This document shows, piece after piece, positions 26,673 through 63,842 of a stretch of 64,000 nucleotides of DNA. The translations under genes were made by a program, and so were the position numbers. Position 1 is the first letter of the stretch; the number at the start of each line of letters is the position of its first letter. The notes beneath the pieces are model-generated. The model had not been told where the DNA came from. It made no database searches and saw only the letters and a program-made list of their open reading frames with translations. Source of the DNA: Chromera velia (Eukaryota); NCBI GenBank assembly GCA_018398765.1, contig JAHBMJ010000332.1, forward strand, positions 62,001 to 126,000, in the 5' to 3' direction.

Positions 26673-28105
26673 GGCAGGCAGGCAGACAGACAGGCAGACA
26701 GGCAGACAGGCAGGCAGGCAGGCAGACAAGAGAGATAGATGGATGCAGGAATTTGCAGACAGGTAAGGAGATGCAGGCAGGTAGAGAGAAGACACAGAAG
26801 CGGGCAGGTAGACGGACTGATCGAGGAATGGATGGATGGATGGATGGATCGAGGGATCGAGGGATGGGATGAGGCAGAACCTAAGTGATTCTCCAAGTGA
26901 TTGTTAGTTGTGAGACTCAACCCTGCCTCCCCACACATTGCATGATTCACTTGTGCGTTGGTGCGTGAGTGCAGAGTAATCATGTGTTTCACAGGGGGAC
27001 CGCCCACAAAGTCCGCGCGCACCGCCCGATGGTCTTGATCACCGTCACTGCTTCACTGCAGAACGTGGAGGTGAAGACCAACGACGGGTAAGTACCCAGG
27101 TCAACCAGTGAGAAAGAAGAAGTTCAATGAATGAAATCGACGTGGGCAGGAAAAATGTACTAGCGTGGGTATCAAAAGTCCAGTATGTAAAGAGCAAGGG
27201 AGTTCAGAGAAAGACGAGAACGGAGGGAGTGCATGAAAGAAAGAGGTTGGTTCCTCATTGCGTTTCCGTTTGGCGAAACAAGCCGTCGACCCCCTCGTTC
27301 AGGCAATCAGTGTGCGTAATATTGTTTTTTATGACAGAACTTCTACTGAAGAAAACATATGCACCTATTCAAAGCACGTCTGTAGGTCGGGAAGAGAGCT
27401 GTCTGCCCGAACTCAGGGCGTCGGGTCTTCTTTCGTCTGTTGCACAGTAGTGGTTTCTTTTTTGGTTCAATGCAAATCTTCGAGCTCCTTTCCTCTTGTT
27501 TAATTGCAGTAACTGGGAGCCTTCCTGGCCCGACCTGGCCCTTGAGAAGCCGACGACGAGGGGGTCGAGGAAGGGAAGAGCCCTCATCAAGACTCACATG
27601 CTCCCCTCAAGAGAGCTGCTCGCAAAGCAGCTGAGGGAGGCAGGAGGGGAGAGGGAAATTGCTGACGTCTGTGGGCTCTCGGTTGAGAGCATCTACGCGG
27701 ACCTTCCCTCCATGTGAGTGAAGTCATTCAGCAGTTTCTTCTGCATGTCTCTTTTCTTCTTTTTCCTGTTTTCTTCTTTCTCGTTTGATTGATGGTCCCT
27801 TTTGGTTCTGGTGTCGCTCTCGCTCATTTGCAATTGATCCTGCCTGGCTGGACGGTCTCCATCTGCATGAGTGCGTGGCTTGTGAAATGGGTGCAAAGGA
27901 CAAGGAAGAAATGGGTCAACGGAAGGAGAAGGAAGTTCCCTGCAGGACTGATTCTTTTTGTTTTCTTCCGCCAATTGACAGGAGAAAGGAAGGACTTTTT
28001 TTTTATTGTCCATCGATCGATCGCGCTGCGCCTCTGCTGTCCAGGTGCGAGAAAAAAAGAGTGAAGGATTGCTGCGAGAAAGGAATTGGCCTTGCTGACG
28101 AGGTG

Positions 28106-28136
<31 letters not shown>

Positions 28137-28225
28137 CCTGCCAAAAGAAGAGAAGAAAACAGAAGAGAATGAAAGTGAGGGTCTGTCTGTCTGTCTGTCT
28201 GTCTGTCTGTGTCTGCTTGTTTTTG

Positions 28226-28262
<37 letters not shown>

Positions 28263-28547
28263 GTCTGTCTCTCTGTCTCTCTGTTTGTCTGTCTGTCTGT
28301 CTGCCTGTCTGTCTGTCTCTCTCTCTGTCTGTCTGTCTGTCTGTCTGTCAGTCTTTTTGTCTGTTGTGTTCATGAAGAAAAGAAGGGAGAAGAAGAAACA
28401 TATAGTCTTGTCTGTCAGTCTATCTGTCTGTCTGTCTGTCTGTCTGTGTCTGTTTGTGTGTCTGTCTGTCTGTCTGTCTGTCTGTCTGCCTGTCTGTCCG
28501 AAAGAAAGGAAGCGTTTCGGAAAAAGTGAAGTGAAGAAAAGACGATA

Positions 28548-28583
<36 letters not shown>

Positions 28584-28632
28584 TTTGTCTATTGTGTTCA
28601 TGAAGAAAAGAAGGAAGAAGAAGAAACATATA

Positions 28633-28723
<91 letters not shown>

Positions 28724-30574: not shown

Positions 30575-33500
30575 TTGTGTAGTGATGAAGTTAAGCCTGA
30601 GGGTAAGAGAGGCAGAAAAACAGGTAAAAGACGCACCAAACCGCTCGCATCTGGCTTACAAAGAACTACTCAAGGTAAGAAGACAGTAAAAGCGCCTCTT
30701 TGCATCAAAATGAAGGAAATATCAGCAAGCTCTAGCAGCATGGCTAGTAAGAGAGGCAGTATACGAACCAGCAAAGATCTGGTAATGGTACAGGAAGTCC
30801 AAAAGCGAGGGAAATGGGGGGGTGGAACCGTCTGCTGACTCTTTCTCTCTTTTCTGGGCCCGTGTGTTTAAGGAAGACGGACTCCCCCCCGCCCCTGCTA
30901 GCCCTGTGTTCCCCCGTCCTTCTTCCCCCGCTTTTTCTCTCCATATGGTAGAGGAAACCCTGAAAGGAATAGACGTGAAGAAGGCTGCCGGTCTTGATGG
31001 AATCGCCCCTGAACATCTCGCTCTTTGCTTCAAACACTCAACCTTTTCTTGCTTTCTCCTCTTTGTCTTCTTTAATTTGTTTCATTCTTTTTCCTTTTGG
31101 CCGTGTAGATAGAACGTCCTGAGGATTGCTCCAATACCCAAGGGTCCCCCTTCTTTTGATTGCAATGAATGGAGGCCCATTCATATTGTTAGTCTTCTGA
31201 ATAAGGTTTTTGCTCTTCTTATGGACGTCCGCCTTCGTAAAGAGACGAGGATCGATGAGAGACAGTTAGGCTTCAGGAGGGGCGTGGGAATATGGGAAGC
31301 GTTTGCGTCCCTCTCTTCTCTCATTCTTCAGTCTAAACATAAAAAGGAACCCCTCATCGCAGCATTTGTAGACTTTTCCAAAGCCTTTGATACAATGCTC
31401 AGAGAGAAAATGTTCGAAAAAATGAAGGATGAAGGGGTTAGTCAGGCAGATATCCACATGATTCATTCTATGTACTGTAATGTTGCTGCAAGGGTTGATA
31501 GGGGGGGTAAGTGCTTGTCAGAGGGAGCGGGTGTGAAGCAGGATAATCCTCTTTCTCCTCTTCTTTTTCTCCTGTTTATAAACAATTTGTACAAAGCCCT
31601 CAGCTCTGAGAACCATTGCAGCAACAGCCGAGTGGTAATGAAGGAAAGAGTGCTTTGAAACCTGTCAAGCTTTCCATAACTCTAATAGAGAGTATTGGTT
31701 ATGCTGATGACCTTGTGTTGTTTGCCCACAGCGCCACAGACCTACAAGAGAGACTCCGGCACCTCGAGGTATACTCTAGGGCCTGGCACTTATATTGGGT
31801 TACAGGTTTTAACACCCCCTATACATAAGGGTATACCCCCCTGTAATGTTACCCTTACTTCAAAAGTGGTCCCAATCGATCAATCTCATCAGGTTACGTC
31901 TAAAAATATTGAAAACATCTTCTGTTGATTGAGGTTACATGAGAAACTGACAAAAAACGATGTGTCCCTTTCACTTTGTAGCCAAACCCCTTCTAACCTT
32001 GTAACCTGTAACCTAAAATAACCCTCTTCAAAAGTGATGTAACCTTCGTCTACATGCATTTTAAAGTGTTTTTGAAGTGATTTGAAGAGTTTTTGAAAGT
32101 TGACTTTTTGGTCGGTTACGGACCTCAAGACCGCCTATAACCTTGTAATCTGTAACCTTGTAAGGGGACATATATAATAAGAGGTGTAACCTCATGTAAC
32201 CACATAAGCTATACAGTAAAAGTGATTGATTTCGAAGTAACTCAACATGTCGGACCTCCAGTTTGTGTGAAAAGCTCGTCCAAATGTTTTTTGGTTCATT
32301 TTTTATATCATTTTTGCACTTGTAACCCTATATGAGCCCATGAGTGCCCCCCCCTAGGGTATACTGCAATGAACACGGACTCACGGTAAACTTAAAGAAA
32401 ACAAAGATCCTTCGTCTATCCTCTTCTGATCCTCTCATTGATCCCGCTTCCGCTTTTATTTTTAATGGAGGGCCGGTTGAGCATGTTGATAAATACAAAT
32501 ACCTCGGCAATTAGATCTTTGAGGGGGGAGATCTATCTAAAAGTGTGAAAGCAAGAATTGAATAGATAGAAAGGGCACTGGGGGGTGTGTTTGGAACTTT
32601 TTCTTCAATTGGTTTCGTTTCTTCTTTTTCTCGAATTTAGCTCTTCAAAGCTTTTTGCAATGTTTGGTCTTGAAGCCTTTTCTCTCAGGCAGTCAGATGT
32701 TCAATGCCTCGATGCATTGCAACTTCGTTTTGTTCGCTGGTCATTTGGTTTGTCCTATAACTCTTTTGTCTCGCCCTCTCTTCATTCCTTTGGTTTGGAA
32801 CCCTTTGGTTGTCTGCTTATAAAACAGGTAGCCAGCTTCTTTCAGTCTCTCAAATCTATAGAAGGCGCCTTACCCACGGCTGTATGGGAGGCGTGCATCG
32901 CTGGTTCTAGTACCCCTTTTATGTCCTCCACCAAACGTCTGGCTATGCCCCTTGACAATTCTTTCCTTCTAGCTCTCCTTCAAGACACGAATGAGCCACG
33001 CCAAGAAAAACAAAAAAAAAAGGGAAATATAAATGGAAAGAGACGTGTCACAAGATCCAGACGAACCAATGACTTAGGAAATGGGCTAGAAGGTAGGAAG
33101 GCAGTAGGAATAGAGACAGAATCTTCCATCCCTGTACTGCCCTCACTGATTTCCAAAGAGAGAACCCTTCCAGACAGAGGCTCTCCATGCTCCTCCTAGC
33201 AGAAAGGAAATGACGGTCACGTCCGTCAGACATAGGAAACGATCTGCACATATGTACACTGTCCTCTTGTCTTCTTAAATCCTCTCCGAACATTTGCTCT
33301 CTCTTGAGAGCGATCACGGGTAGTTATGTGTAGCGGGGGGAGCTAGAGAAGACCTGCTTGGCTTGCTCTGGCAGAAAAGTTTGTGATGAGATCCACTTAC
33401 TCACGGAATGTGCGAACACAGAGAGGGAAAGATAGAAGCTTGACGAAATCATCAGCAGAATAAAGGAGCGCGCACCCATTGAGAAATGGGTGGAAATTGC

Positions 33501-38822: not shown

Positions 38823-39007
38823 ATACTAAATTTTATATAAAATTTTTTAGGACTGCATGTAGGACTGTGTCCGAGTTATTCAGGATATAATGCTTTAATA
38901 GGATAGGATAGGATCAATTATTATAACCCTAGCATTAACCCTAGGTGTTATGCAGAGAATAATGCCATATATGGTGACTATATCTACCGAGACCTAGATA
39001 TCGATAT
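38823..39007 (+). repeat. ~185-bp direct repeat, copy 1 (left flank of LINE fragment)
   Basis: Aligns end to end with 40008-40196 (ATACTAAATTTTATAT...GAGACCTAGATATYGATAT). Confidence 0.9.
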
Positions 39008-40003
39008 CGATTTGTTTGAAGACAGAGCAGGTAGAAAGGTTGGCTCAACAATGAAAATAGACAGACAGAGAATAGGGAGAGCTCCTTTTTGCTATATGAG
39101 AGTGGCGCCACGATCGGAACACAGGAGGAGAGCAGCATGCAGGGTGGGAGACAGGGCTGTGGCTGCGACTCAGGGAAAAATTCCGGTAAGGGGGGGAAAG
39201 AAGGTGCCGTTACAGAAAAGGATGTGCCAGTTCTGTCGAGGGTGGTTGGGAATCGAGGTGGTCGAAGATGAAATCCATCTGGTGACAGAATGTCCTGTTT
39301 TTGACAGAGAGAGAGCAGAGATGTTCAGAAAGATAGAAGAGAAATGGGACAGCAAGATGGAAGAAAGAGCCAGAAAGGCAGCCACAGAAAGAGAAGGGCT
39401 CAACAAAGAAGAGGGAAAAAGAGACAACTCGACGCTTTTCTGCTTTCTGTTGAATGAATGTCATGCCGGAGTAGATGAGTTTGTGGGATGGGCGTCATTC
39501 AGACGGAGGGTGTTTGAGGAATGTCCAGGACGGTATGGACATATAGAGGGAGACGCTCTGGCGGCCAGACATGCAGGAATCACCGGAAGGCAGCGGGCGA
39601 TCGAGAGACTAATAAAAGAATATGAGGAGACAATTGATAACTTAGAGATGACCGAAGGAGCGTTAGGGTGGGGAAGGAGGGAGCCGCAGAAGAAGATTAA
39701 TAAAGCAAACAAGAAGAGCGAGGAAGCCTAAATCATATGGATAAAGCAAACAAGAAGAGCGAGGAAGCCCAAATCACATGCCGTTTCAACTCGATTTTCA
39801 GGTTGGAAAGCCAATACGGATCCAGAGCTGTGACTCGAACAATGAACAATCATGCAGCAGCGGCCAGGGCAACAGACTCTGGCAGGCCCCGAGGGCAGGG
39901 TCTGATACCTCAGCTTAGGCTGGGGAACGCCCCGCCCTGCTAGCTCTGGCGACAGATAGATATAGCGGGAAGGCCCTAGGGCAGAACATATCAATCAATC
40001 AAT
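39008..40003 (+). mobile_element. 3' fragment of a LINE retrotransposon (CCHC zinc-knuckle C-terminus, 3' UTR, simple-repeat tail)
   Basis: ORF 39012-39731 contains RMCQFC-x9-EDEIHLVTECP, the C-terminal knuckle of APE-type LINE ORF2. The element ends in (ATCA)3 at 39990-40003. Confidence 0.8.
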
Positions 40004-40007
40004 GTGA

Positions 40008-40196
40008 ATACTAAATTTTATATATAAATTTTTAGGACTGCATGTAGGACTGTGTCCAAGTCATTCAGGATATAATGCTTAAATTAATAGAATAGGATAG
40101 GATCAATTATTAACCCTAGCATTAACCCTAAGTGTTATGTAGAGAATAATGCCATATATATAGTAACTATATCTACCGAGACCTAGATATTGATAT
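40008..40196 (+). repeat. ~185-bp direct repeat, copy 2 (right flank of LINE fragment)
   Basis: Aligns with 38823-39007. Confidence 0.9.
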
Positions 40197-40321
40197 ATAC
40201 CATAGTAACCCTAAATGACCTAGTAACTGATGCACCGTGACTAGCACCGTGATAGTGGTTTAGTAGTGCCCTAGAGCACTGTCGTTATTTTGTCTTTAAT
40301 ATAGATTTAAAAAAATCCTCC

Positions 40322-40680
40322 AGAGAGATAGACAGACAGACAGACAGGCAGACTATATGTTTCTTCTTCTTCTGACTAACAGACAGACAGACAGAGACAG
40401 ACAGACAGACAGACAAACTATATCGTCTTTTCTTCACTTTACTTCACTTCACTTTTTCCGAATCGCTTCCTTTCTTTCGGACAGACATACAGACAAACAG
40501 ACAAACAAACAGACAGACAGACAGACTATATGTTTCTTCTTCTCCCTTCTTTTCTTCATGAACACAACAGACAAAAAGAAAGAAAGAACAAAGACAAAAG
40601 CACAGCACCAACAATCAAACAGCGTGGGCAGGGGGCCCGAAAGGTGAGAGTTAAGCGCCCCTTGCCTCTCCACCTCCCAG

Positions 40681-40711
<31 letters not shown>

Positions 40712-41200
40712 TCACTTCAGACAGACAGACAGACAGACAGACAGACACACAGACAGCCAGACTATATGCTTCTTCTTCTCCCTTCTTTTCTTCATGAACA
40801 CAATAGACAAAAAGAAAGAAAGCAGACAGACGGACAGACAGACAGATAGACAGACTATATGTTTCTTCTTCTCCCTTCAGACAGACAGACAGACAGATAG
40901 ACAGACAGACAGACAGAAAGAAAGACAGACAGAAAGAAAGAAAGGAAGGAAGGAAGGAAGGAAGGAAGGAAGGAAGGAAGGAAGGAAGAGAGGAAGGAAA
41001 GAAAGAAGGAAGGAAGAAAGGAAGGAAGGAAGGAAGGGAGGTAGGAAGGAAGGAAGAAAGGAAGGAAGGAAGGAAGGAAGAAAAAAAGGAAGGAAGGAAG
41101 AAAAAAAGGAAGGAAGAAAGGAAGGAAGGAAAGAAGGAAGGAAGGAAGGAAGGAAGGAAGGAAGGAAGGAAGGAAGGAAGGAGGAAAGGAAGGAGAGAGC
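40322..41200 (+). repeat. Composite array: (GACA)n with interspersed unique modules, followed by (GAAG)n
   Basis: Four copies of GACTATATGTTTCTTCTTCTCCCTT.. and one of TATCGTCTTTTCTTCACTT..TTTTTCCGAA, homologous to 28340-28640 in the opposite orientation. Confidence 0.85.
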
Positions 41201-45973: not shown

Positions 45974-48540
45974 ACACGTGTATATGTGTGTGTGTGTGTG
46001 TGAGTTGATGCCTGTTCATGCAGGGAGGCATACCGTTGGACAACGGGAGTCCGACGAGTGGGGGGAGTTCAACTTTGTCGAGGAGGATGTTGGAGTTTCG
46101 CCTGTCTATCCAGATCCCCCCCCGTCAGCCTCTGTCCTTCTCTCTCTCTCGGGGAGAGCCTGAGAGCTCCCTTGAGGATGAGCCTCCGCCTGCGGGGGGG
46201 CTCGGGGGGCGGTGTGCGAGGGAGGGGGCAGGGGCAGCTGCCACCTCTGTGGAGGGCGTGGGTGAGGATAAGAACGAGTACACGAGGGGAAGAGGGGGGT
46301 CATGGAATTCTTCCGAATTCAGAAGAGGGCTGAGTAACTCCGCTACAGCCGCAGCTGCCTCGAATGCGATTGTGGATGCAGCAGCCGCCGTCACAGGGGA
46401 TGTCTCCCTTGCCTCAGCAATTCCCGCTGGAGGCCCTTCCTCCTCTCCCCCCTCTTCCTCTTCCTCTTCCTCTTCTTTTGGTCTGCAAAGCCTCCTCAGA
46501 TGTCACGAGAGAGGAGGAGAGAGCGAGACCGACTCCCCCAAAACACCCACAGGACGCCGCAGTGCAGAGGCGCGGCGTATGAGGGAACCAGGGGGGGTGC
46601 AGCCTGGGGCACGAACGGCACTGCCCCCCCATGTTATGCCTGTGCCTCCAGCACCCAGAGTCCCTTCTGTTGCACCTATATTCCAACCACAGTCGCAGAG
46701 CGCTGCTGCTTCTTCCTCGGGTATTAATTGGGGGGGTGGGGTTGGAGGAGGAGGAGGAGGTCTTTTCGATGGGGCGGGGGCGGCCTCGGTGGTTTCTGGG
46801 CGCAGCGCCGCTTCTGCGTCTACTTTTTCAGGTCTGCGGTCAACGGGAGGTTTTCAGGGTGTTCGGTCTTCCCCCCCTAGGGTCAAGATAGACGCCGCCC
46901 CAGGGGGCCAGTCGTCGATGGGCGGGGGGAGGGCAGTGTCGCCCTCACCTTTCGGTCTTCCCCCGTCTCCCTCAGCACCGTCGTGTCGGGGCACCTCCTC
47001 CGCATTCGGCCTGTCGTCCCCCTCTAGGGGGGGGGGCGCACCTAGAGGGAGGGTGTCGCCTCGGCCGATGCAACAGAGACTAGACCCCGCACAACTCCTA
47101 GCAGCAGCAGCTCAGCAGGGGTCCTCAAGCTCTAGCAGCAGTCAGAGTGGTGGTACCTCTGCTGCTGCTGCTGCTGCTGCCTGTGGGTTTGGACACGCCG
47201 GGGCATCCGAGGGGGGTCTGTTTGGTTCTTCCACTTCCCCGTCCGGCCTTACGGGAGTGAACTTACATGGACAGCCCCCCGTGGCCCCTTCAGGTTCTTC
47301 CTTTCCCTTCTCCCCCCTCGCGAACTTCTCTAGTAGAAGGCCGGGGGGGCATCCGGGACAGGGGGAGCGGGGGACAACAGGAAGCGCTGGGCGGGGGCTG
47401 TCTCCTATGTCCCGTCTCACACGGGGGGTGATGGGAGATGACTCTATGATGGACGGGGACGGTGAGGGGGAGAGTCTGGCGTCACCTCCGCCTTTGAGCC
47501 CTCCTGCAGATGTGCGGCCCATGTCGCTGTTTCGCCCTGGGTTTGGCGTGGGTGCCCCGGGAAGTGGAGCCAGCAGGCCCCCACCCGCCCCATCCACAAC
47601 AGGGGCCCCGGCAAAACCCTCATCCTCTCCTTTTCGGTCCCTTTCCCTTTCACAGGGATCAGAGGCAGCGCAGGTCCTCGCACACAAACACGACGCCCAA
47701 CGACGATTTGCGAATTCCTTCCGTCAGCATTCCACGTTCCCTTTCTCAGTCGCACCCGTCGGTCGTGGTGGGGTGGGGGACACACCTAAGGCCGGGGAGA
47801 CGCGGCAGCCTGAGACGGGAGGAGATGGGGACATGCGGCCCCTGTTGCAGTCGCAATTGCCGTTGTCGGGGGACGTTCTTGTTCACGTCGGTGGGGGGAG
47901 GCCTAGCAGGGGAAGCTCTGTGCCGGGGCCCTTGTCCTCTCATTGGCAGGGGGCCCGTCCGGGTGCGGGGGGGGGAGTGCCGAGTTCGTTTTCTTTCGGC
48001 TCCTCTGCCACGGTTCGGGACAGGAATGCCTCTGGGGGTGGGGAGTTTCAGGGAGGGGGGGGAAGGGACGGTTTCTCCCTCGGCACGTTTTCTTCTGCGG
48101 GGGGGGTGGGGGGCGGTGTGGGAAGGGGGGGTTTCTCTTCAATGTCTGACGGTCAGAGTCCTGTTGCGGTAGGGGGAAGCTCCCTATTTGGAGCCCCTCA
48201 CACACACACCCAGGCCCCCGTGTCTGATCACGGCGGGGGGGCAGGAGGGGACGAGTCGATGGGTGCGTTCGGTGTGGCCCCGTTGGAGGAAACGTCAGGA
48301 GGGGGAGGGGGGGTTCCCTGGGGGTGGGGGGGAGATAGCGCGATGGGGGAGGAGAAGGGAGGGCCTCCCAGCTCTGCGGGGGGATTTTGGGGGTCCGACA
48401 CTGCCGGGGTCTCTGTGCAGGCGCAGGGGGCCCACAGCCAAGCCGGGTCCCCTGGGCTTCTGCCCTCTGCAGGATCTGACGGGACCGCACCGGCGTCTGT
48501 CGGGGCCGCCTTTCCCGTGCCCTCCCCTTGGAATTTGTAA
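42804..48540 (+). CDS. Ubiquitin/NEDD8-conjugating-enzyme-like (Ubc12-like) fold protein, probably a catalytically inactive variant, with very long G/S/P-rich regions; 5 exons
   Basis: Exons 42804-43123, 43867-43967, 44329-44438, 44713-45624 (contains an N gap) and 46024-48540 have compatible splice phases. UBC-like segments are [33 protein letters not shown] and [20 protein letters not shown]. No HPN..C motif is visible. Confidence 0.65.
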
Positions 48541-51315: not shown

Positions 51316-52032
51316 TTGCATCATAAGCGCCGGCTGCAATGCAAACTCCCGTCCTATATAGCAGGAACTTGAACCTTTTCGTCTTACATTGTCTTGTCTT
51401 ATTCATCATCTGACTGATTGCAGAGCTCCCGTGAGCGGAGATGCAGGCCGAAAGAAGAGATCGATCAGTATTTATGAGGAACCGGAACGGTTGTGGTGAT
51501 GACACGCATGCCTGCAACTTGTGTCGGCTGTGACGTGCAGGCTAGCGCGCGGCTTGGATATGGGTCGGCCCTCTATGGCATCAATGTGCAGTGTGTGGCC
51601 CCTATGGCATACAACAGTTTATACATTTCTTATACAATGATCTCATTCATACTGAAGCATGCTGCTCCGAAAGTAGAAGAGTTTGAAAAGAAACATCCTG
51701 GTTGAATTAAATATAAATCAAAATGAACTGCCTAGTGCATTGCCGCCGAATGTTAGATGCATATAGACGCCTATTCATAGCCTCATAAGCCTAGTCATAG
51801 GGTGATAGAGATGATGTATAATGATGATAAATCATTGATGACGATGAATTACTAGATGAATCAGCATGCAGACTCATAGTGTCACTCATTATTCCGAGTC
51901 ATTAATGTTTTACCGTAAACTACTAGCTAAATTGTGAGTTTAAATTTTAATTATTAAAAAACCGTATACCTCGTTCCTATATAGTTTACTCTCAACCCCG
52001 CTATGGCAAACCAAAAATAAAAAAAGATAGAA

Positions 52033-53438
52033 AAAGACCAGCCTAGCTATTTGTGGATAACTACTAGCAGCTAGATCTAACTAGATCTAGATTTAACTTT
52101 TGATGAAACTAATAGGTATAGTGCCAGTAAAAATTATTGATAAATGAGAGAAAAATTTATGAATCTAATGAAATTCTGAGTGAAATTAAGTGAAATCCCT
52201 AGTGAAATTCACTTTTAAATACACGAAAAAACAATGGAACAACTCTGTGAACAGACCACTTCAAGTTATTTAAACTAGTATTCAAAACTGTGAATTCATA
52301 ATTCAGCTGTTTGTCAGTCCTGTTGTGATGGTGCCAGACCTCCTACAGCTTTCTGGTAGCATTCAAACTTGTTGGCCCATCTGTCCTCCCAAGGAGCCGA
52401 GATATCAGCGCCTCTGCAGAACACACGTGGAAACGCTTCTTGTGAAGGTGTAGACCTGGTTTTGCACGTACATTCGGAGAAGAGACGGTGAAAGAACGAT
52501 CCTCAGAAACACTTCCCAGACTTCATTTCTCTCGACTGACCTATTTCTGAAGCTTGGTAAACAGATTCACAGAAACGAATCCAAGACAAGCAGTGTGGTG
52601 TGACTGGACATAGAGGCCCTTTCCGTGCAATTCGTCAACAGAGGAAAGCAGTGGGAAGGCTGAAATTTCGTTGCTTTCTTCTAGTTATTGATCTCCATCA
52701 CCCTCCTTCCTTTCTTGCGCCTCTCAAGAAGATAACAAAAGAGAATCAAGAAATGCACAAATGGAATCATGTTCACCAACAGACAGACAGACAGACACAC
52801 ACACACACATACACACACACACACATATACACACACACATACACACACACACATACACACACACACATATATACAGAGAGAGAGAGACACACACAGACAC
52901 ACACAGACACAGATACGCATGCCCTCTGAAAGGTACCTACTTTGTTTTTGCTGGATGCACAGATGCCAAGAACCTCCTCATGATCGTCTGCATCTTCTCC
53001 GCAAAGTCGGACACTGCTTGCTCCCTTTCAGCAGCCGCCCCGCTCATTTTGCGTTCCCGCGCACGTGCCACCTGCCGGTCCGCTTCGTCTTCGAAACTTC
53101 CCGCCGCCACCGCCTATAGCAGCAGAATAGATTCAAAGGGAACACAAGAAAAGCACAGAAACGAGAGGGAAATAAGTAAAACTAAACTTCGATAATGGGG
53201 TGCCAGACAGAACTTTGGATGATTGACGAACAAAAGGAGTCTGAACAAAGGAAACACTATTGTCTATGGCGTCTTCGTCTCCCTTATCCTTAAAAACAAG
53301 AAATTTTTAACGTCAAAAGGCTTGACAAAAGGGGAGGACGAGAGGCCACAGTCTTTCTGTGTGCGTGTATGTCGACGTCACTTCAGTCAACTGACGACTG
53401 ACGAACCTGATCCTCTGGAAAGACGTCGGGAAGCCAGT
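52033..53438 (-). pseudogene. Tandem duplicate of the 3' end of the acyltransferase gene (part of third-last exon, last two exons, 3' flank)
   Basis: Near-identical to 53439-54796, joined at an AAA microhomology. It has no 5' exons of its own and carries missense changes (G>D, D>N, P>L, R>Q, TR>MQ). Confidence 0.88.
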
Positions 53439-53719
53439 AAAGACCAGCCTAGCTATTTGTGCATGACTACTAGCAGCTAGATCTAACTGGATCTAGATTT
53501 AACTTTTGATGAAACTAATAGGTATAGTGCCAGTAAAAATTATTGATAAATGGGAGAAAAATTTATAAATCTAATGAAATTCTGAGTGAAATTAAGTGAA
53601 ATCCCTAGTGAAATTCACTTTTAAATACACGAAAAAACAATGGAACAACTCTGTGAACAGACCACTTCAAGTTATTCAAACTAGTATTCAAAACTGTGAA
53701 TTCACAATTCAGCTGTTTG

Positions 53720-54201
53720 TCAGTCCCGTTGTGATGGTACCGGACCTCCCACAGCTTTCTGGTAGCATTCAAACTTGTCGGCCCATCTGCCCTCCCAAGG
53801 AGCCGAGATATCAGCGCCTCTGCAGAACACACGTGGAAACGCTTCTTGTGAAGGTGTAGACCTGGTTTTGCACGTGCATTCGGGGAAGAGACGGTGAAAG
53901 AACGATCCTCAGAAACACTTCCCAGACTTCATTTCTCTCGACTGACCTATTCCTGAAGCTTGGTAAACAGATTCACAGAAACAAATCCAAGACAAGCAGT
54001 GTGGTGTGACTGGACACAGAGGCCCTTTCCGTGCAATTCGTCAACAGAGGAAAGCAGCGGGAAGGCTGAAATTTCGTTGCTTTCTTCTATTCGTTGATCT
54101 CCATCACCCTCCTTCCTTTCTTGCGCCTCTCAAGAAGACAACAAAAGAGAATCAAGAAATGCACAAATGGAATCATGTTCACCGACAGACAGACAGACAC
54201 A

Positions 54202-54243
<42 letters not shown>

Positions 54244-57066
54244 CACACACACAGACACACACAGACACAGACACGCATGCCCTCTGAAGGGTACCTACTT
54301 TGTTTTTGCTGGATGCACAGACGCCAAGAACCTCCTCATGATCGTCCGCGTCTTCTCCGCAAAGTCGGACACTGCCTGCTCCCTCTCAGCAGCCGCCCCG
54401 CTCATTTTGCGTTCCCGCGCACGTGCCACCTGCCGGTCCGCTTCGTCTTCGAAACTTCCCGCCGCCACCGCCTGCAGCAGCAGAATAGATTCAAAGGGAA
54501 CACAAGAAAAGCACAGAAACGAGAGGGAAATAAGTAAAACCAAACTTCGATAATGGGGTGCCAGACAGAACTTTGGATGATCGACGAACGAAAGGAGTCT
54601 GAACAAAGGAAACACTATTGTCTATGGCGTCTTCGTCTCCCTTATCCTTGAAAACAAGAAATTTTTAACGTCAAAAGGCTTGACAAAAGGGGAGGACGAG
54701 AGGCCACAGTCTTTCTGTGTGCGTGTATGTCGACGTCACTTCAGTCAACTGACGACTGACGGACCTGATCCTCTGGAAAGACGTCGGGAAGCCAGTAAAC
54801 GTCGACAGCGTGAAAGGGCTGCACATGCATGAGGGAACAAAGAGAGGGGGGTGAGGTGCTGCATTTGTTTTTCGTTTCCTGTCTCCCTTGCTTCAGTCAG
54901 TCCCCTGCCTTCTTTGTTCTGTGTGACTGTCTCTCTCTCTCTCAATGTGAAAGCGGAAGACACTACAGAATGTGTGCAGCCGGACAGGAAGAGTCGACCC
55001 TCCGTGTAGAGGACCGGACGTGAGAAGAGAAGGCATGGGACGAGGCACAGCGGGACAAAAAAGAAAGGCGCAGAAAGCAAGGAGCGAAGGAAGAAAGGAA
55101 AGACGATAGAAAGGAAAGAAAAAGGAAAACCACAAAGAAAAAAGGAATGAAAGAGAAAACCATCACCCACCTCCGCCATCAGAAGAGGAAGGTACACAGA
55201 TGTCGGCAGAATTTCGTATGCCGGGTTAAAGTGTGAGAAGGGGAAGTGGAGGACGACCGGAGTCACAGGCTGAAGAGCTTCGAAGGCTCCTGCATGCATC
55301 AGCAAGGAGAGAAAAAAAAGGGGGGGGAAAGCTATTCAAATTACCCCATAAAGATTGACCAGACGGCGAGAAAACTTATTGGGATGGGAAACATGCAGAC
55401 ATACCGGGAGCCACATGGCAAATATGAGAAGCAAGTAGTTGTACGCAGGGGTAAATCTTGTCTGTTCCGTTCTGTATTCTCCCGTTCTTTTTTGGAATCG
55501 TCCCCAGTCATTGACTTCGGCCAGCTGTCGGTGCTGAGACAATATGGAAGGAGAGAGGTTCAGGAGAGAGGAAACGGTGCAATCTATGCCGCAGAGACGC
55601 CAACCATACAGACCTGTCTTGAAGGGAATGAGGTCGAGGCCGTTGGAGCTGGTGCCTGAAAGAACAGACTCTCAGGTAGACAGCAGAGCAGAAATGAAGA
55701 AGGGAAGGGGGGGGCGGGATAAAAAGGAAGAAGACCCGCCCGGTTTGATGACAGGAGGAGAGAAAGGTGAGGCCGAAGACGAAAAGTGCATCTGTGAATG
55801 AAATTCGTCCGGGTTTTTAAAGAAATGTTTCTTAGATGGTGAGTAACCAGAGATGAAGAAGGGGCGTGGAGAAAGACTGCAGAAAGAGGCAATCGGCATA
55901 AATGAAACACCCAAAAGAAGTATCGGTCAACCAAAAGTCCACAATCTCGCAAAACAACCTGAACCCTTCGAACATACTAAGGAAGACCAGCACTGAAATT
56001 TCTGTTTCTGCTTTCCACCTGCCTGCTTGCCTGCCCAAGAGACAAAACATGCACCCATGCATGCATGTATCCATGCATGCATGCAGACCTTCCGGGAAGA
56101 CCACGAGGGGCCTCTGAGAGGGTCTGAACGTTCCCGACTCGTCCTGGACCCTCTGTATAACTTTCCGTCTTGCTGCCTCTCTGCAATCAACAAACAAGGA
56201 AGGACACGGGCAGCGAGACAATCGAAAGGGTCTGAGGGGAGCTAGGGGAAGAAAGAAGAGCTGGGGGGTAACGGAATTTGCAGATAGACGTGTCATTTGT
56301 TTCGTAATCAAAAGGTCGCCAGAGTGTCAGCCCTACCTATTCTCGGTCTTTGAATGCGACTCTTCCCACCCATCATCTATCTAATCCACTGTGGACTATC
56401 GTATTCAAAAACGCGTACACGAACTTTCATCCATCTTCTGCACGCTCACAAGCAACACTTACAATAATCGCTCTCTGCCCCCCCCCAAACTCACCCACTC
56501 ACCGATCGGCCGCTTCCACTCTTTCCACCAGCACACAGTCAAGGGCGTCCACCACGGCTCCCACGAAGGGCACACGGCCCACCGCCGCCTGCAAAGAAAA
56601 GGGAAATGACAGCAAGCCGTGATGACCGAGAAAATGAAGATTCTTCGCATCTGTGCCTGGAAGAAACACACATTTGGGACCGCAAAATGGTCTGGATGAG
56701 GCAGAAGGACGAGAGAAGTTGCACAAAAACCACGCTTCCCTTCGAGCAGAGAACAAAGCTGAATTTCTCCTTCTGTCAATAAAATTTTGCTTTTCAATAG
56801 AGGTGACAGGGTTAGACGGAATCTATTGGTATCTCTTCCATTAGGCACTCCTTGGCAAACGGCTGGTCTTTCTGAATGTTTCCGTTGTGTGTGCCACCAT
56901 GGCTCTCATTCCATCGTGCTTTCCATCCATCCATTCCCTTTAGTTCTCTGGCATTCATCACCCACGGCCTCTCCCCCCTGGAGCCCTCCCACCTTTGCAA
57001 CGAAGGACGGCTTGAGGAATCGGAGGAACACAACAACGTCCTGAGAGCAGAACACACACAAACACA

Positions 57067-61016: not shown

Positions 61017-63842
61017 TCAAATGCTGTTGACCCCAACTCCTTTGGCACACGTCTCGGATCCTTCTGTATCTGCAACAGTCTGCATGCCCTGAACTCGGGC
61101 CTCACTTCTCTCTCCACTGGCATTCCCTCCTCGAGAAGAAACGGCGAAGATGGACGCAGGAAGGGCGCCACTGCCGTCCTGCACGCCCACGCCCACCAAA
61201 GAATTCACTGCCCACCCGCCTGTCACACCTACGTCGTCCCCTCCCTGCGTCCTGTCTCTGAAGCTCCCGTCTCCTCTGGGTGTCCGTGAGGACAAAAAGG
61301 GAGAGGAAGACCCCGAAAGAACGTCAGCAGACGCGAGCCCACCCCCATCAACGTCTGCGTCTTCAGGCTGTGCAGCAGAAATGGAAGGAAGAAGATTGTC
61401 AAGGGAAGAACCCCGACCTGCCTCTCTCTCATGTCCATTTAGCCGAGTGGACTCTCGAAGTGTCACATGAGATCTCTGAGAAGACACATGGAATGCAGAC
61501 GGAGAGCTGAACTCGTTCAAGTTCGATGACTCCATCCCGTCTCTCCGAAGCTCTCCATCCTCCCGTCCCGTCTCCCCCTTTGCCTCTGCCTCTGCCTCAG
61601 AGAAAGCAGATTCGACTCGGCCCTCCGTGTCTCTCTCTCTCGACGCTTCCCTCAGTCTCCTGTCTCTGTCGGGGTCATTCACTGTTCCCTCTCCTCTGCC
61701 TCCTGTGCCAGAGGAAGCAGAGGAAGACGCAGGCCCATTTGCGGGAACTTCAAAGAAAGACAATCTGCAGACGCCCTGGTCATCTGATTCAGTCAGTGCC
61801 AGGGCAGAGGTCTGCATTGCAAGCACTGAAGGAATTTGAGGAACAACCTCCGACGCAGCACTCGCATCTTCGAGGGGCACGTTAGAGACACTCTGTCCGT
61901 TCGCGGAGGACAACTCGTCTTTGGCTCCACCAGCCTTCCCTCTGTACACCTCCGCCCAGTGTGATTGCGCACTCAAGTCTAGTACAGGAAGGTAGGTCGC
62001 TTCAATTGCACTTGAAAAAGTCTCTGCTTGACCCGATGCGACCCTCTCTGGCCCAGTGGGGGCACTCAGAGAAGGCACAGAGAGGCCAACTTCGTCGAGA
62101 CGCCCCTGGGTCTCCTCATCAGGAGGCTCACAGGCCCCCGTGTTTCGACACCTGACCTCTTCCCCCGAAGAAATCCTCAGCTGTTCAAGCCGCCTGCTCT
62201 GAGACTCTCCCTCGGCACTGCCACTGAACCGTTCGAGGCTCTCCGTCTGTGCACCCCTCTGCCCACTTGGGCCCTGCAGGTTTGTCCACAACATCTCCTC
62301 ATCGCTCTCAGCAGGAGCATGGGCACGGGGGGTGGAAGAAGACGGATGCGTCTCTGGGGGGGGGTTAGGGGGAGGGGTGTCGGGGGGGGGAGGATGGGAG
62401 TGTGCAGGAGGACGAGAAGAAGACGAGGAGGATGAGTGAGTCTGAATCGCGGAGAGAGCTGGCTTTGCAGCTGGGGGTGCCTTCAAGGACATTCTCACTT
62501 TCGGCTGGGGGACGGCTGGGGGTCGGAGCCATGGGGTGGGCAGAGACGAAGAAGACGAAGAGGAGAAAGAGGACGAGGAGGGACCCTCCATATCTGCTGT
62601 CGGAATTGGATGTGAAGAGGAGACGGGAGACTCGGATGCGTCGAACAACCGTCGCAGCTCATCAGCGTCCCACCGCCGTCTGTCCTCTGAAGGCGACGGA
62701 GACTCCGCCCTTCCTCCGATCGTGTGAGTGCGAAAATGCTGTTGCGCTTGGAAGCTCAGCTCGCGGGAGACCTGATCTGGAGGCTGGGGCTGAGGGAGCG
62801 GCCTCTGAGTGCCCTGATCGGTGATGCCCCCCCCTTCCACGAGATGCCATTCCCTTTCCCCGTCTCCCTCACCCCGCCAATCCCCCTGAAAGTGACCCCT
62901 CTGGACGATCTCTGACTGCGTGACTTGGCGTGTCTCCTCTGCAGTATGGGACTGACTCACTCCAGTCATGAGGGAGCTCAGACGAGGAGACGCAGGCCGG
63001 ACTGCATTTGTTTCCCACCGCCTTCCTGCCCCCTCTCTGCCGGCTTCCCGTCTCCTTTCTCTTTCCGACGGTCCGAAATTGAAAGGGGACGGCGAAATGT
63101 TTCCCTCTTCCCCTCTCTCTCGCCGCGAAAGGTTTTCGTTTTAACCTCTCTCGAGGGTGGGGGTGGAGATGGGAATGTCAGACGGGGGTCGAGAGGGGAA
63201 TTGCGAATTCAAGGGGAGAGATCTCGGGTGCGGTGCGGAGGGACGTGGAGGCGAGGCAGTGAGAGAAGGAAGCATCGTGGTCGGGGTTGGGCGTGGGGGA
63301 GGAAGGAGACGGAGGGGCGGGTCATTGTCGCTGTGGGCACGTGCAAGGTCTCCAGAATTCGCGTCGTTTCTTCTGTGATACCGTTGGTAGAAGGACGCCA
63401 GGCTGTCTCGCTCCCGTTGGCGCATTCGCGCTCTCTCGCGGGCCGCCACGGCAGAAGACGGCATGCTGCGGCGTGAGGCCACGGGAGGGTTTGAGGAAGG
63501 GAGCCCGTTTGGGTTTTGCCGTGAGGCCGTCGAAGAAGAAGACGCAGACGCCGCTGCAGCAGCAGCGGGGGCAGAGGAAGCGATCCCCCCTCTCCCACTT
63601 TCCATGGCAGCTGAGGAAGAAGCCGATGCGGAGGCGGATCTAGAGAGGAAATTGGAAGTTGCCGTTGCAGCGGAAGTCGCCCTTGCAGTGTGGCGACCCT
63701 CCCGCCGCCTGTCCAAAGCCAAACGGATGGACTCCCTGGTCCCTGGGACCGCCATTCTGCAGATGGGGCAACTTTCGGACTTCCCAAGCCACTCACGGAG
63801 GCAGGCTGTGTGCCAGAAGTGGTCGCACGGAAGAACGAGAAC
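61017..63842 (-). CDS. RING-H2 E3 ubiquitin ligase, 3' part (5' exons outside the window), with a long disordered C-terminus
   Basis: Exon 63146-63842 begins VLVLPCDHFWHTACLREWLGKSESCPICR (C-x-H-x2-H-x2-C..W..CPxCR). A phase-1 intron joins it to the final exon 61017-63001. Confidence 0.85.

What the first reader, a model, noticed from the sequence alone, without database searches (positions are those of the whole stretch)
52033..54799. RIP-like, one-directional C>T/G>A hypermutation of a tandem gene-end duplication
Aligning copy A (52033-53438) to copy B (53439-54796) by eye outside the CA microsatellite, I count about 38 substitutions. About 36 are transitions, and about 33 of those leave A/T in the promoterless copy A versus about 3 in the gene copy. 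Contexts include CpG but also many CpA/TpG (cac>cat, tgca>tata, ttg>tta) and some CpC/CpT, and the CA tract of copy A is peppered with CA>TA. Intronic and flanking sites show the same polarity, so selection on the protein does not explain it. Repeat-induced point mutation is established in filamentous fungi. A repeat-targeted mutational defence, or all-context methylation followed by deamination, would be notable in an alveolate-like genome; that interpretation is inference.
Basis: partly seen in the sequence, partly recalled or inferred. Interest (0 to 1): 0.88.

Follow-up and report, generated by a model that had tools for sequence, protein, structure and literature searches.

The report
RIP-like C-to-T decay in Chromera duplication
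In the alga Chromera velia, a dead 1.4-kb tandem copy of a gene's end carries 33 of the 36 C-to-T-type differences from the working copy, likely because a repeat-silencing process mutates cytosines there, a kind of genome defence known mainly from fungi.

Summary
Copies A (52033-53438) and B (53439-54796) differ at 38 of 1312 columns outside the microsatellite; 36 are transitions and 33 leave A/T in A (p=2e-7). Public DNA runs hold A's letters at 26 of 38 sites and span the left junction, so this is not an assembly error. B is the end of Chromera velia gene Cvel_410, an acyltransferase. A second isolate agrees with B: 25 changes are private to A, 1 to B; in introns 14 to 0. Both strands are hit, with rates CpG>CpA>CpC>CpT and no strand clustering or 5' preference. 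A second short repeat pair shows 8 transitions, 7:1. It works like fungal repeat-linked C-to-T mutation, but fails as canonical RIP: one copy is spared, CpG is hit at least as hard as CpA, and one survey lists no RID, DIM-2 or DNMT1/3/5 in Chromera, only four DNMT2. Best reading (0.45): cytosine modification and deamination in silenced repeat chromatin, enzyme unknown. Methylation, homology sensing and genome-wide extent are untested.

The parts
52033..53438 (-). Copy A: dead tandem copy of the gene's last 2.5 exons, 3' UTR and downstream flank; carries the 33 C>T/G>A changes
53439..54796 (-). Copy B: working 3' end of Cvel_410; matches the database protein; one private CpA>TpA change (53739, Ala>Val)
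53439..53441 (.). A/B junction with 3-base microhomology AAA, also at 52033-52035 and 54797-54799
   Evidence: junction contig inferred from depth
53720..59811 (-). Cvel_410, 432-aa phospholipid/glycerol acyltransferase (PF01553) of Chromera velia CCMP2878; stop codon 53720-53722
   Evidence: spliced joints
53820..54298 (-). Last intron (GT..AG), 11 A/T-in-A changes vs 1
54472..54764 (-). Second-last intron (GT..AG), 7 A/T-in-A changes vs 0
52941..53113 (-). Dead copy of exon 54299-54471; T383M and R384Q relative to the gene (R in 81 of 122 homologues, Q in 14)
52796..52867 (+). Expanded (CA)n tract of copy A with TA interruptions; left out of all counts
51643..51710 (.). Multi-copy element in the AT-rich flank next to copy A; window has A where most depth has G (51693)
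   Evidence: tables 2, 3, 7
38823..40196 (+). Second repeat pair (38823-39007 and 40008-40196): 8 transitions, 7 leaving A/T in the second copy; contexts CpA 4, CpG 2, CpC 1, CpT 1
   Evidence: (contexts read by hand)
31113..31655 (+). Decayed LINE-type reverse transcriptase; departures from two relatives favour GC>AT transitions 14:2

Best explanation
A microhomology-bounded tandem duplication of the end of Cvel_410 left a dead copy that has gained C-to-T changes on both strands in all dinucleotide contexts, likely because silenced repeat chromatin marks its cytosines (presumably by methylation) and these would then deaminate, while the transcribed copy is likely shielded. Shown: the duplication, the polarity, the spectrum and that the changes lie on the dead copy. 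Inferred: silencing of A, a cytosine-modifying enzyme, accumulation over several rounds (strands are interleaved), and shielding of B by transcription plus selection. The closest working model is Dim2-driven mitotic C-to-T mutation of repeats in Zymoseptoria, not premeiotic RID-type RIP. The enzyme is unknown; candidates are a diverged DNMT2 paralogue or a relative of the orphan DNMT4-like protein reported in Vitrella.
For: 33:3 polarity and 36:2 transitions to transversions. Against a second isolate over 957 columns: 25 A-private changes (23 GC>AT), 1 B-private, p=8e-7; introns 14:0, p=1e-4. The 3 listed isolate differences outside the repeat are all transversions (36:2 vs 0:3, p=0.0009). Flat density along A, 0.039-0.071 per G/C site, then a drop at the junction. 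Dependence on the 3' base, none on the 5' base (p=0.51), and random strand order (17 runs, p=0.55) fit methylation-deamination better than a single-strand deaminase. A second, non-genic pair has the same context order. The LINE remnant is skewed 14:2, p=0.01. TpA odds ratio is 0.96 in 1.5 kb of TE/intergenic DNA vs 0.35 in introns. Precedent in a sister lineage: CH methylation on silent TEs in Symbiodinium (PMC5890265, passages). Precedent for the mechanism: PMC8016269 abstract.
Against: No methylation data. One survey lists 0 DNMT1/3/4/5/6, 0 DIM2, 0 orphan and 4 DNMT2 for Chromera (PMC12344493 supplementary table), and its text says DNMT2-only species have undetectable 5mC. That table has apparent false zeros (Vitrella, P. 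falciparum), so absence is not secure. The neutral control is tiny: 3 sites, 2 from contigs under depth 5, and 2 further differences of unknown kind were not listed. The second pair alone is not significant (p=0.07). The LINE test also has 15 transversion-only and 12 multi-step departures of 43, and its two relatives are 89% identical, so they are nearly one outgroup. CpA is not depleted in the TE/intergenic sample (1.01 vs 1.13). Five A/T letters shared by A and B against the isolate show that the transcribed interval was not fully shielded.
Confidence: 0.45

Rival explanations
1. True homology-sensing RIP-like defence. Pairing of the two copies triggers bursts of C-to-T on either copy; bursts on B are purged by selection together with their intronic changes, or overwritten by exchange between the copies.
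For: Window-A/T vs isolate-G/C transitions number 6 in 957 columns inside the duplicated interval and 0 in about 1523 outside (p=0.003). Five are shared by A and B and one is private to B; their contexts are CpA 4, CpG 1, CpC 1, like A's (read). The non-genic second pair is also lopsided. Vitrella has a DNMT4-like orphan, CEM15752 (PMC10538959 section 17 and supplement).
Against: 25:1 asymmetry, whereas fungal RIP hits both copies (recalled; 10.1101/115501 passages describe mutation of 'the repeated sequences'). CpG is hit at least as hard as CpA. No strand-coordinated runs. DNMT4/RID 'appears to be confined to fungi' and is 0 for Chromera (PMC12344493); the Vitrella protein splits from canonical DNMT4 in one of two trees. 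The shared letters could predate the duplication or be changes in the other isolate, and one rests on a contig of depth 3.3.
Confidence: 0.22
2. No targeting of repeats. Any untranscribed DNA in Chromera has a high C-to-T rate, for example from spontaneous deamination that is poorly repaired outside transcribed regions, and copy A simply left the protected state.
For: No DNA-type DNMT on record for Chromera. Intergenic stretches are AT-rich (250-base windows down to 28-36% GC). A lies beside a TE-rich flank.
Against: A's rates (33/607 GC>AT vs at most 2/705 AT>GC, 19-fold) imply about 5% GC at equilibrium, far below any stretch counted. A/B transversion divergence (2/1312) is similar to isolate divergence (5 in about 2480), so the transition excess is roughly tenfold or more (my estimate, small numbers).
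Confidence: 0.22
3. Reverse polarity: A keeps the ancestral letters and GC-biased gene conversion drove B (and the other isolate's gene) to G/C.
For: The other isolate also has G/C at 5 sites where both A and B have A/T.
Against: A's residues depart from family consensus (R384: R in 81 of 122, Q in 14; D414: D in 53 of 119, N not among the six commonest). It would need 6 amino-acid changes fixed in about 90 codons of the gene. Biased conversion does not predict 36:2 transitions or a CpG/CpA context (established knowledge, recalled). No such bias in the upstream introns of the same gene.
Confidence: 0.06
4. Assembly artefact: alleles or errors assembled as a tandem pair.
For: No listed contig spans the A/B junction; one DNA run may be the assembly's source.
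Against: A's letters at 26 of 38 sites in DNA contigs; left junction spanned in two runs; raised depth on collapsed contigs (X1 19-28 vs 15-18; X2 38-42 vs 27-29; depth is only a rough guide); branching at the repeat end.
Confidence: 0.03

Closest known systems
Dim2-dependent mitotic C-to-T mutation of repeats in Zymoseptoria tritici (PMC8016269, abstract seen)
   Same: C-to-T transitions gather on silent repeated DNA, include non-CpG sites and need no sexual cycle.
   Different: There the change is specific to CpA and the enzyme is known. Here CpG>=CpA>CpC>CpT, and no DIM2 is listed for Chromera.
Repeat-induced point mutation (RID and DIM-2 pathways) of Neurospora crassa (10.1101/115501, PMC12543289, passages seen)
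   Same: Near-pure C>T/G>A transitions in a linked duplication of 1.4 kb, both strands, CpA among the favoured sites.
   Different: One copy is almost spared, CpG is at least as mutable, there is no strand clustering, no RID is on record, and timing and homology sensing are unknown.
RIP-like TpCpG hypermutation of TEs in Pucciniomycotina (PMC3318451, passages seen)
   Same: Inferred from sequence alone; CpG-containing targets; TCG is the commonest trinucleotide here (5 of 33).
   Different: No significant 5' base effect here (p=0.51), and 21 of 33 changes are outside CpG.
CG-wide plus TE-focused CH methylation in Symbiodinium (PMC5890265, passages seen)
   Same: Sister alveolate lineage; CH methylation on silent elements would give the order CpG>CpH seen here.
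   Different: That is a methylation map, not a mutation pattern. Symbiodinium kawagutii has DNMT3/5/6 and orphan DNMTs that are not listed for Chromera.

Membership tests
Fungal RIP | Almost only C:G>T:A transitions in duplicated DNA | tested here: met
   36 of 38 transitions; 33 GC>AT on A, polarised by an outgroup isolate
Fungal RIP | Both copies of the duplication are mutated (recalled) | tested here: not met
   25 A-private vs 1 B-private; introns 14:0. Five shared A/T letters leave some room for earlier hits on B.
Fungal RIP | CpA/TpG preference (ascomycete type) | tested here: not met
   CpG 12/112 vs CpA 13/189 (p=0.28); CpA exceeds CpT (p=0.02)
Fungal RIP | Confined to repeats and their near flanks, triggered by homology | tested here: inconclusive
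   6 of 957 inside vs 0 of about 1523 outside against the isolate, but the outside control is transcribed DNA; no unique silent DNA was compared
Fungal RIP | RID/DNMT4 or DIM-2 enzyme | not testable with these tools
   No genome held. Literature: 0 DNMT4, 0 DIM2, 4 DNMT2 for Chromera; DNMT4-like orphan in Vitrella
Fungal RIP | Acts premeiotically in a sexual cycle | not testable with these tools
   One search listed no paper that settles ploidy or meiosis in Chromera (listing only)
5mC-linked mitotic mutation of repeats (Dim2 type) | 5mC on silent repeats | not testable with these tools
   No methylome found
5mC-linked mitotic mutation of repeats (Dim2 type) | Silent copy mutated, expressed DNA spared | tested here: inconclusive
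   Polarity met; B is spliced and expressed; silence of A is inferred from its lack of promoter and 5' exons
AID/APOBEC-type clustered deamination | Strand-coordinated clusters with a 5' base preference (recalled) | tested here: not met
   17 strand runs in 33, p=0.55; 5' context p=0.51

The most novel reading that the evidence does not exclude
Chromera velia has its own homology-sensing, RIP-like genome defence that rewrites duplicated DNA by C-to-T mutation in all contexts, spares the transcribed copy, and runs without RID, DIM-2 or any canonical DNA methyltransferase, possibly through an expanded DNMT2 family. It would be an independent origin of RIP outside fungi, in the free-living sister group of apicomplexan parasites.
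Probability: 0.22. Interest if true: 0.9.

Novelty: new variant of a known kind. Interest (0 to 1): 0.63.

Why it matters
Repeat-directed C-to-T hypermutation is described as a fungal mechanism (PMC12543289 passages), and my searches found no report of it, or of a methylome, in chromerids (Woo et al. 2015 has 0 occurrences of 'RIP' or 'methylation'). If the pattern is genome-wide, it points to a cytosine-modifying activity in an organism listed as having only DNMT2-type enzymes, which bears on the disputed question of whether DNMT2 acts on DNA, and on how the ancestors of apicomplexans controlled transposons. It is cheap to test: the genome is public, the alga grows in culture, and a second isolate has data.

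Tried and rejected
No whole genome was held, so no genome-wide tally of duplications and no enzyme search were possible. A wider read-based control (TE-family variants, and isolate differences over more genes and unique intergenic DNA) was not obtained; this leaves open whether the skew is specific to repeats. Metagenome scans gave no Chromera-like DNA: 0 of 191 candidates for the RT, and 49 loci for the acyltransferase at 28-55% identity, none close and none used. The RNA-type runs X3 and X4 do not cover copy A; I draw nothing from this, since that isolate may lack the copy. No RNA holder is on record as such, though X3 and X4 show spliced joints. Pfam on 20 ORFs gave only the RT above its cut-off. 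The 707-aa ORF found only itself. The microsatellite TA interruptions were rejected as independent evidence. APOBEC-type clustering was rejected. A gradient away from the TE flank is slight (0.071, 0.051, 0.058, 0.039) and was not tested for significance. Hoguin et al. 2023 does not name Chromera in its main text or in the 12 of 23 supplementary files searched; the 11 unsearched files may bear on its DNMTs. PMC12695648 main text and the PMC7463849 supplement had no Chromera mention. bioRxiv supplements were not seen. Earlier findings of this scan: none returned.
Full report
Observation. The window holds a head-to-tail duplication, A at 52033-53438 and B at 53439-54796. Outside the CA/GA microsatellite, 38 of 1312 columns differ. 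36 are transitions, and 33 of these leave A/T in A (p=2.3e-7); 19 read C>T and 14 G>A on the + strand. Changes per available site are CpG 12/112, CpA 13/189, CpC 5/125 and CpT 3/181 (p=0.009 against uniform). All three breakpoints share AAA, which suggests microhomology-mediated duplication (inference).

Is it real DNA? Two DNA runs from two studies hold the stretch; one may be the assembly's own source. Their contigs carry A's letter at 26 of 38 sites, span the left junction without a difference, end at the repeat's last base, and are deeper where the copies collapse. The A/B junction is not among the listed pieces; leftover depth fits a single-copy junction contig in both runs. Mis-assembly is unlikely but not excluded by a long read.

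What is duplicated. Spliced contigs give seven GT..AG introns of a minus-strand gene. It is Cvel_410 of Chromera velia CCMP2878, a 432-aa PF01553 acyltransferase that the window encodes with differences only at exon edges. B is its working 3' end. A holds the last 2.5 exons with no promoter or 5' part and abuts an AT-rich flank with a multi-copy element.

Which copy changed. Runs X3 and X4 differ from the window at exonic and intronic sites and by indels, so I read them as a second isolate. Over 957 covered columns, 25 differences are private to A (23 GC>AT, 1 A>G, 1 transversion), 1 is private to B (a CpA>TpA change, Ala>Val), 1 site has three letters, and 7 set the isolate apart from both copies. 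Introns alone give 14:0. Protein relatives agree: in an alignment of P0006 with 124 of the 149 other listed hits (length 270-520), R384 is R in 81 of 122 and A's Q in 14. Of one further 'reverse' site that the isolate covers (53983), the change is a true A>G on A.

Control. Outside the repeat, three isolate differences are listed in about 1523 columns and all are transversions (p=0.0009 against 36:2). This is thin: two come from contigs under depth 5, two more differences were not itemised, and the control DNA is transcribed. Inside the repeat, six transitions have A/T in the window's B and G/C in the isolate, against none outside (p=0.003); five are shared with A. They fit exchange between the copies after mutation, hits before the duplication, or changes in the other isolate. 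I cannot separate these.

Other elements. A second pair of about 185 bases (38823-39007, 40008-40196) differs by 8 transitions plus one run shift and two small indels; 7 leave A/T in the second copy (p=0.07), in contexts CpA 4, CpG 2, CpC 1, CpT 1. Neither copy is a gene as far as I can see. A LINE RT remnant departs from two relatives at 43 of 98 agreed columns: 14 by GC>AT transition, 2 by AT>GC, 15 by transversion only, 12 multi-step (p=0.01 for 14:2); the relatives are 89% identical to each other. TpA is enriched in 1.5 kb of TE/intergenic DNA (0.96 vs 0.35 in introns) but CpA is barely lower (1.01 vs 1.13).

Mechanism. Strand order along A is random (p=0.55) and the 5' base does not matter (p=0.51). 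This argues against APOBEC-type clusters or one single-strand pass, and fits repeated modification of cytosine on duplex DNA with a 3'-base preference. A's rates imply about 5% GC at equilibrium, while the lowest 250-base windows counted are 28-36% GC (44 of 64 kb), so the process is probably not acting steadily on all untranscribed DNA. I commit to cytosine modification and deamination in silenced repeat chromatin, with B shielded by transcription and selection (0.45). Rivals: homology-sensing RIP with purging on B (0.22), untargeted poor repair of silent DNA (0.22), reverse polarity (0.06), artefact (0.03). Nothing here shows methylation.

Comparison with known systems. It works like Dim2-driven mitotic C-to-T mutation in Zymoseptoria (PMC8016269, abstract) and resembles Neurospora RIP in outcome (10.1101/115501, PMC12543289 and 10.1101/2021.04.05.438447, passages; PMC3318451, passages). 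It is not filed as RIP: one copy is spared and the CpA preference is not met. Enzymes: Sarre et al. 2025 list for Chromera only four DNMT2 and call DNMT4/RID fungal (PMC12344493, passages and table rows). That table shows 0 for Vitrella, where Funabiki et al. report a DNMT4-like orphan (PMC10538959, passages, section 17, supplement rows), and 0 for P. falciparum, whose DNMT2 is in a search listing (PMC8561396), so its zeros are uncertain. Symbiodinium has CH methylation on silent TEs, biased to 3' ends (PMC5890265, passages).

Novelty. Searches found no report of RIP-like mutation or a methylome in chromerids; the genome paper (PMC4501334, passages) has no occurrence of 'RIP', 'methylation' or 'methyltransferase'. 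The library lacks most subscription papers. Verdict: a real and strong local signal, a new variant of repeat-linked C-to-T hypermutation in an unexpected lineage, resting on one solid locus and two weaker ones. Interest 0.63.

Noticed in passing
window 38823-40196: A direct repeat of about 185 bases flanks a 1-kb piece with an ORF and a (TCAA)n tail. It may be a LINE 3' fragment with an unusually long target-site duplication; the more mutated copy sits at the tail end.
   Followed up: partly
window 53439-54796 vs runs X3, X4: Five A/T letters shared by both copies but G/C in the second isolate lie only within the duplicated interval; possible exchange between the copies or earlier hits.
   Followed up: partly
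window 53739: The working gene of this isolate carries a private CpA>TpA change (Ala427Val), the one clear hit on copy B.
   Followed up: yes
window 54090-54093 / 52684-52687: Three changes in four bases, including one of the only two transversions; perhaps one complex event.
   Followed up: no
window 30900-33100: Decayed LINE-type RT interrupted at about 31790-32340 by an AT-rich insert; nearest proteins Cvel_11935 and Cvel_25099 at 54-55%.
   Followed up: partly
window 28100-28720 and 40320-40940: Related microsatellite-laced repeat modules in opposite orientation (about 75% identity), likely a small dispersed repeat family.
   Followed up: no
window 61017-63140 and 46009-48540: Long low-complexity ORFs (707 and 843 aa) with no Pfam match; the first found only itself among 7987 candidates.
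   Followed up: partly
PMC12344493 supplementary table 1: Chromera is listed with four DNMT2 sequences, against 0-2 in the apicomplexans listed.
   Followed up: no
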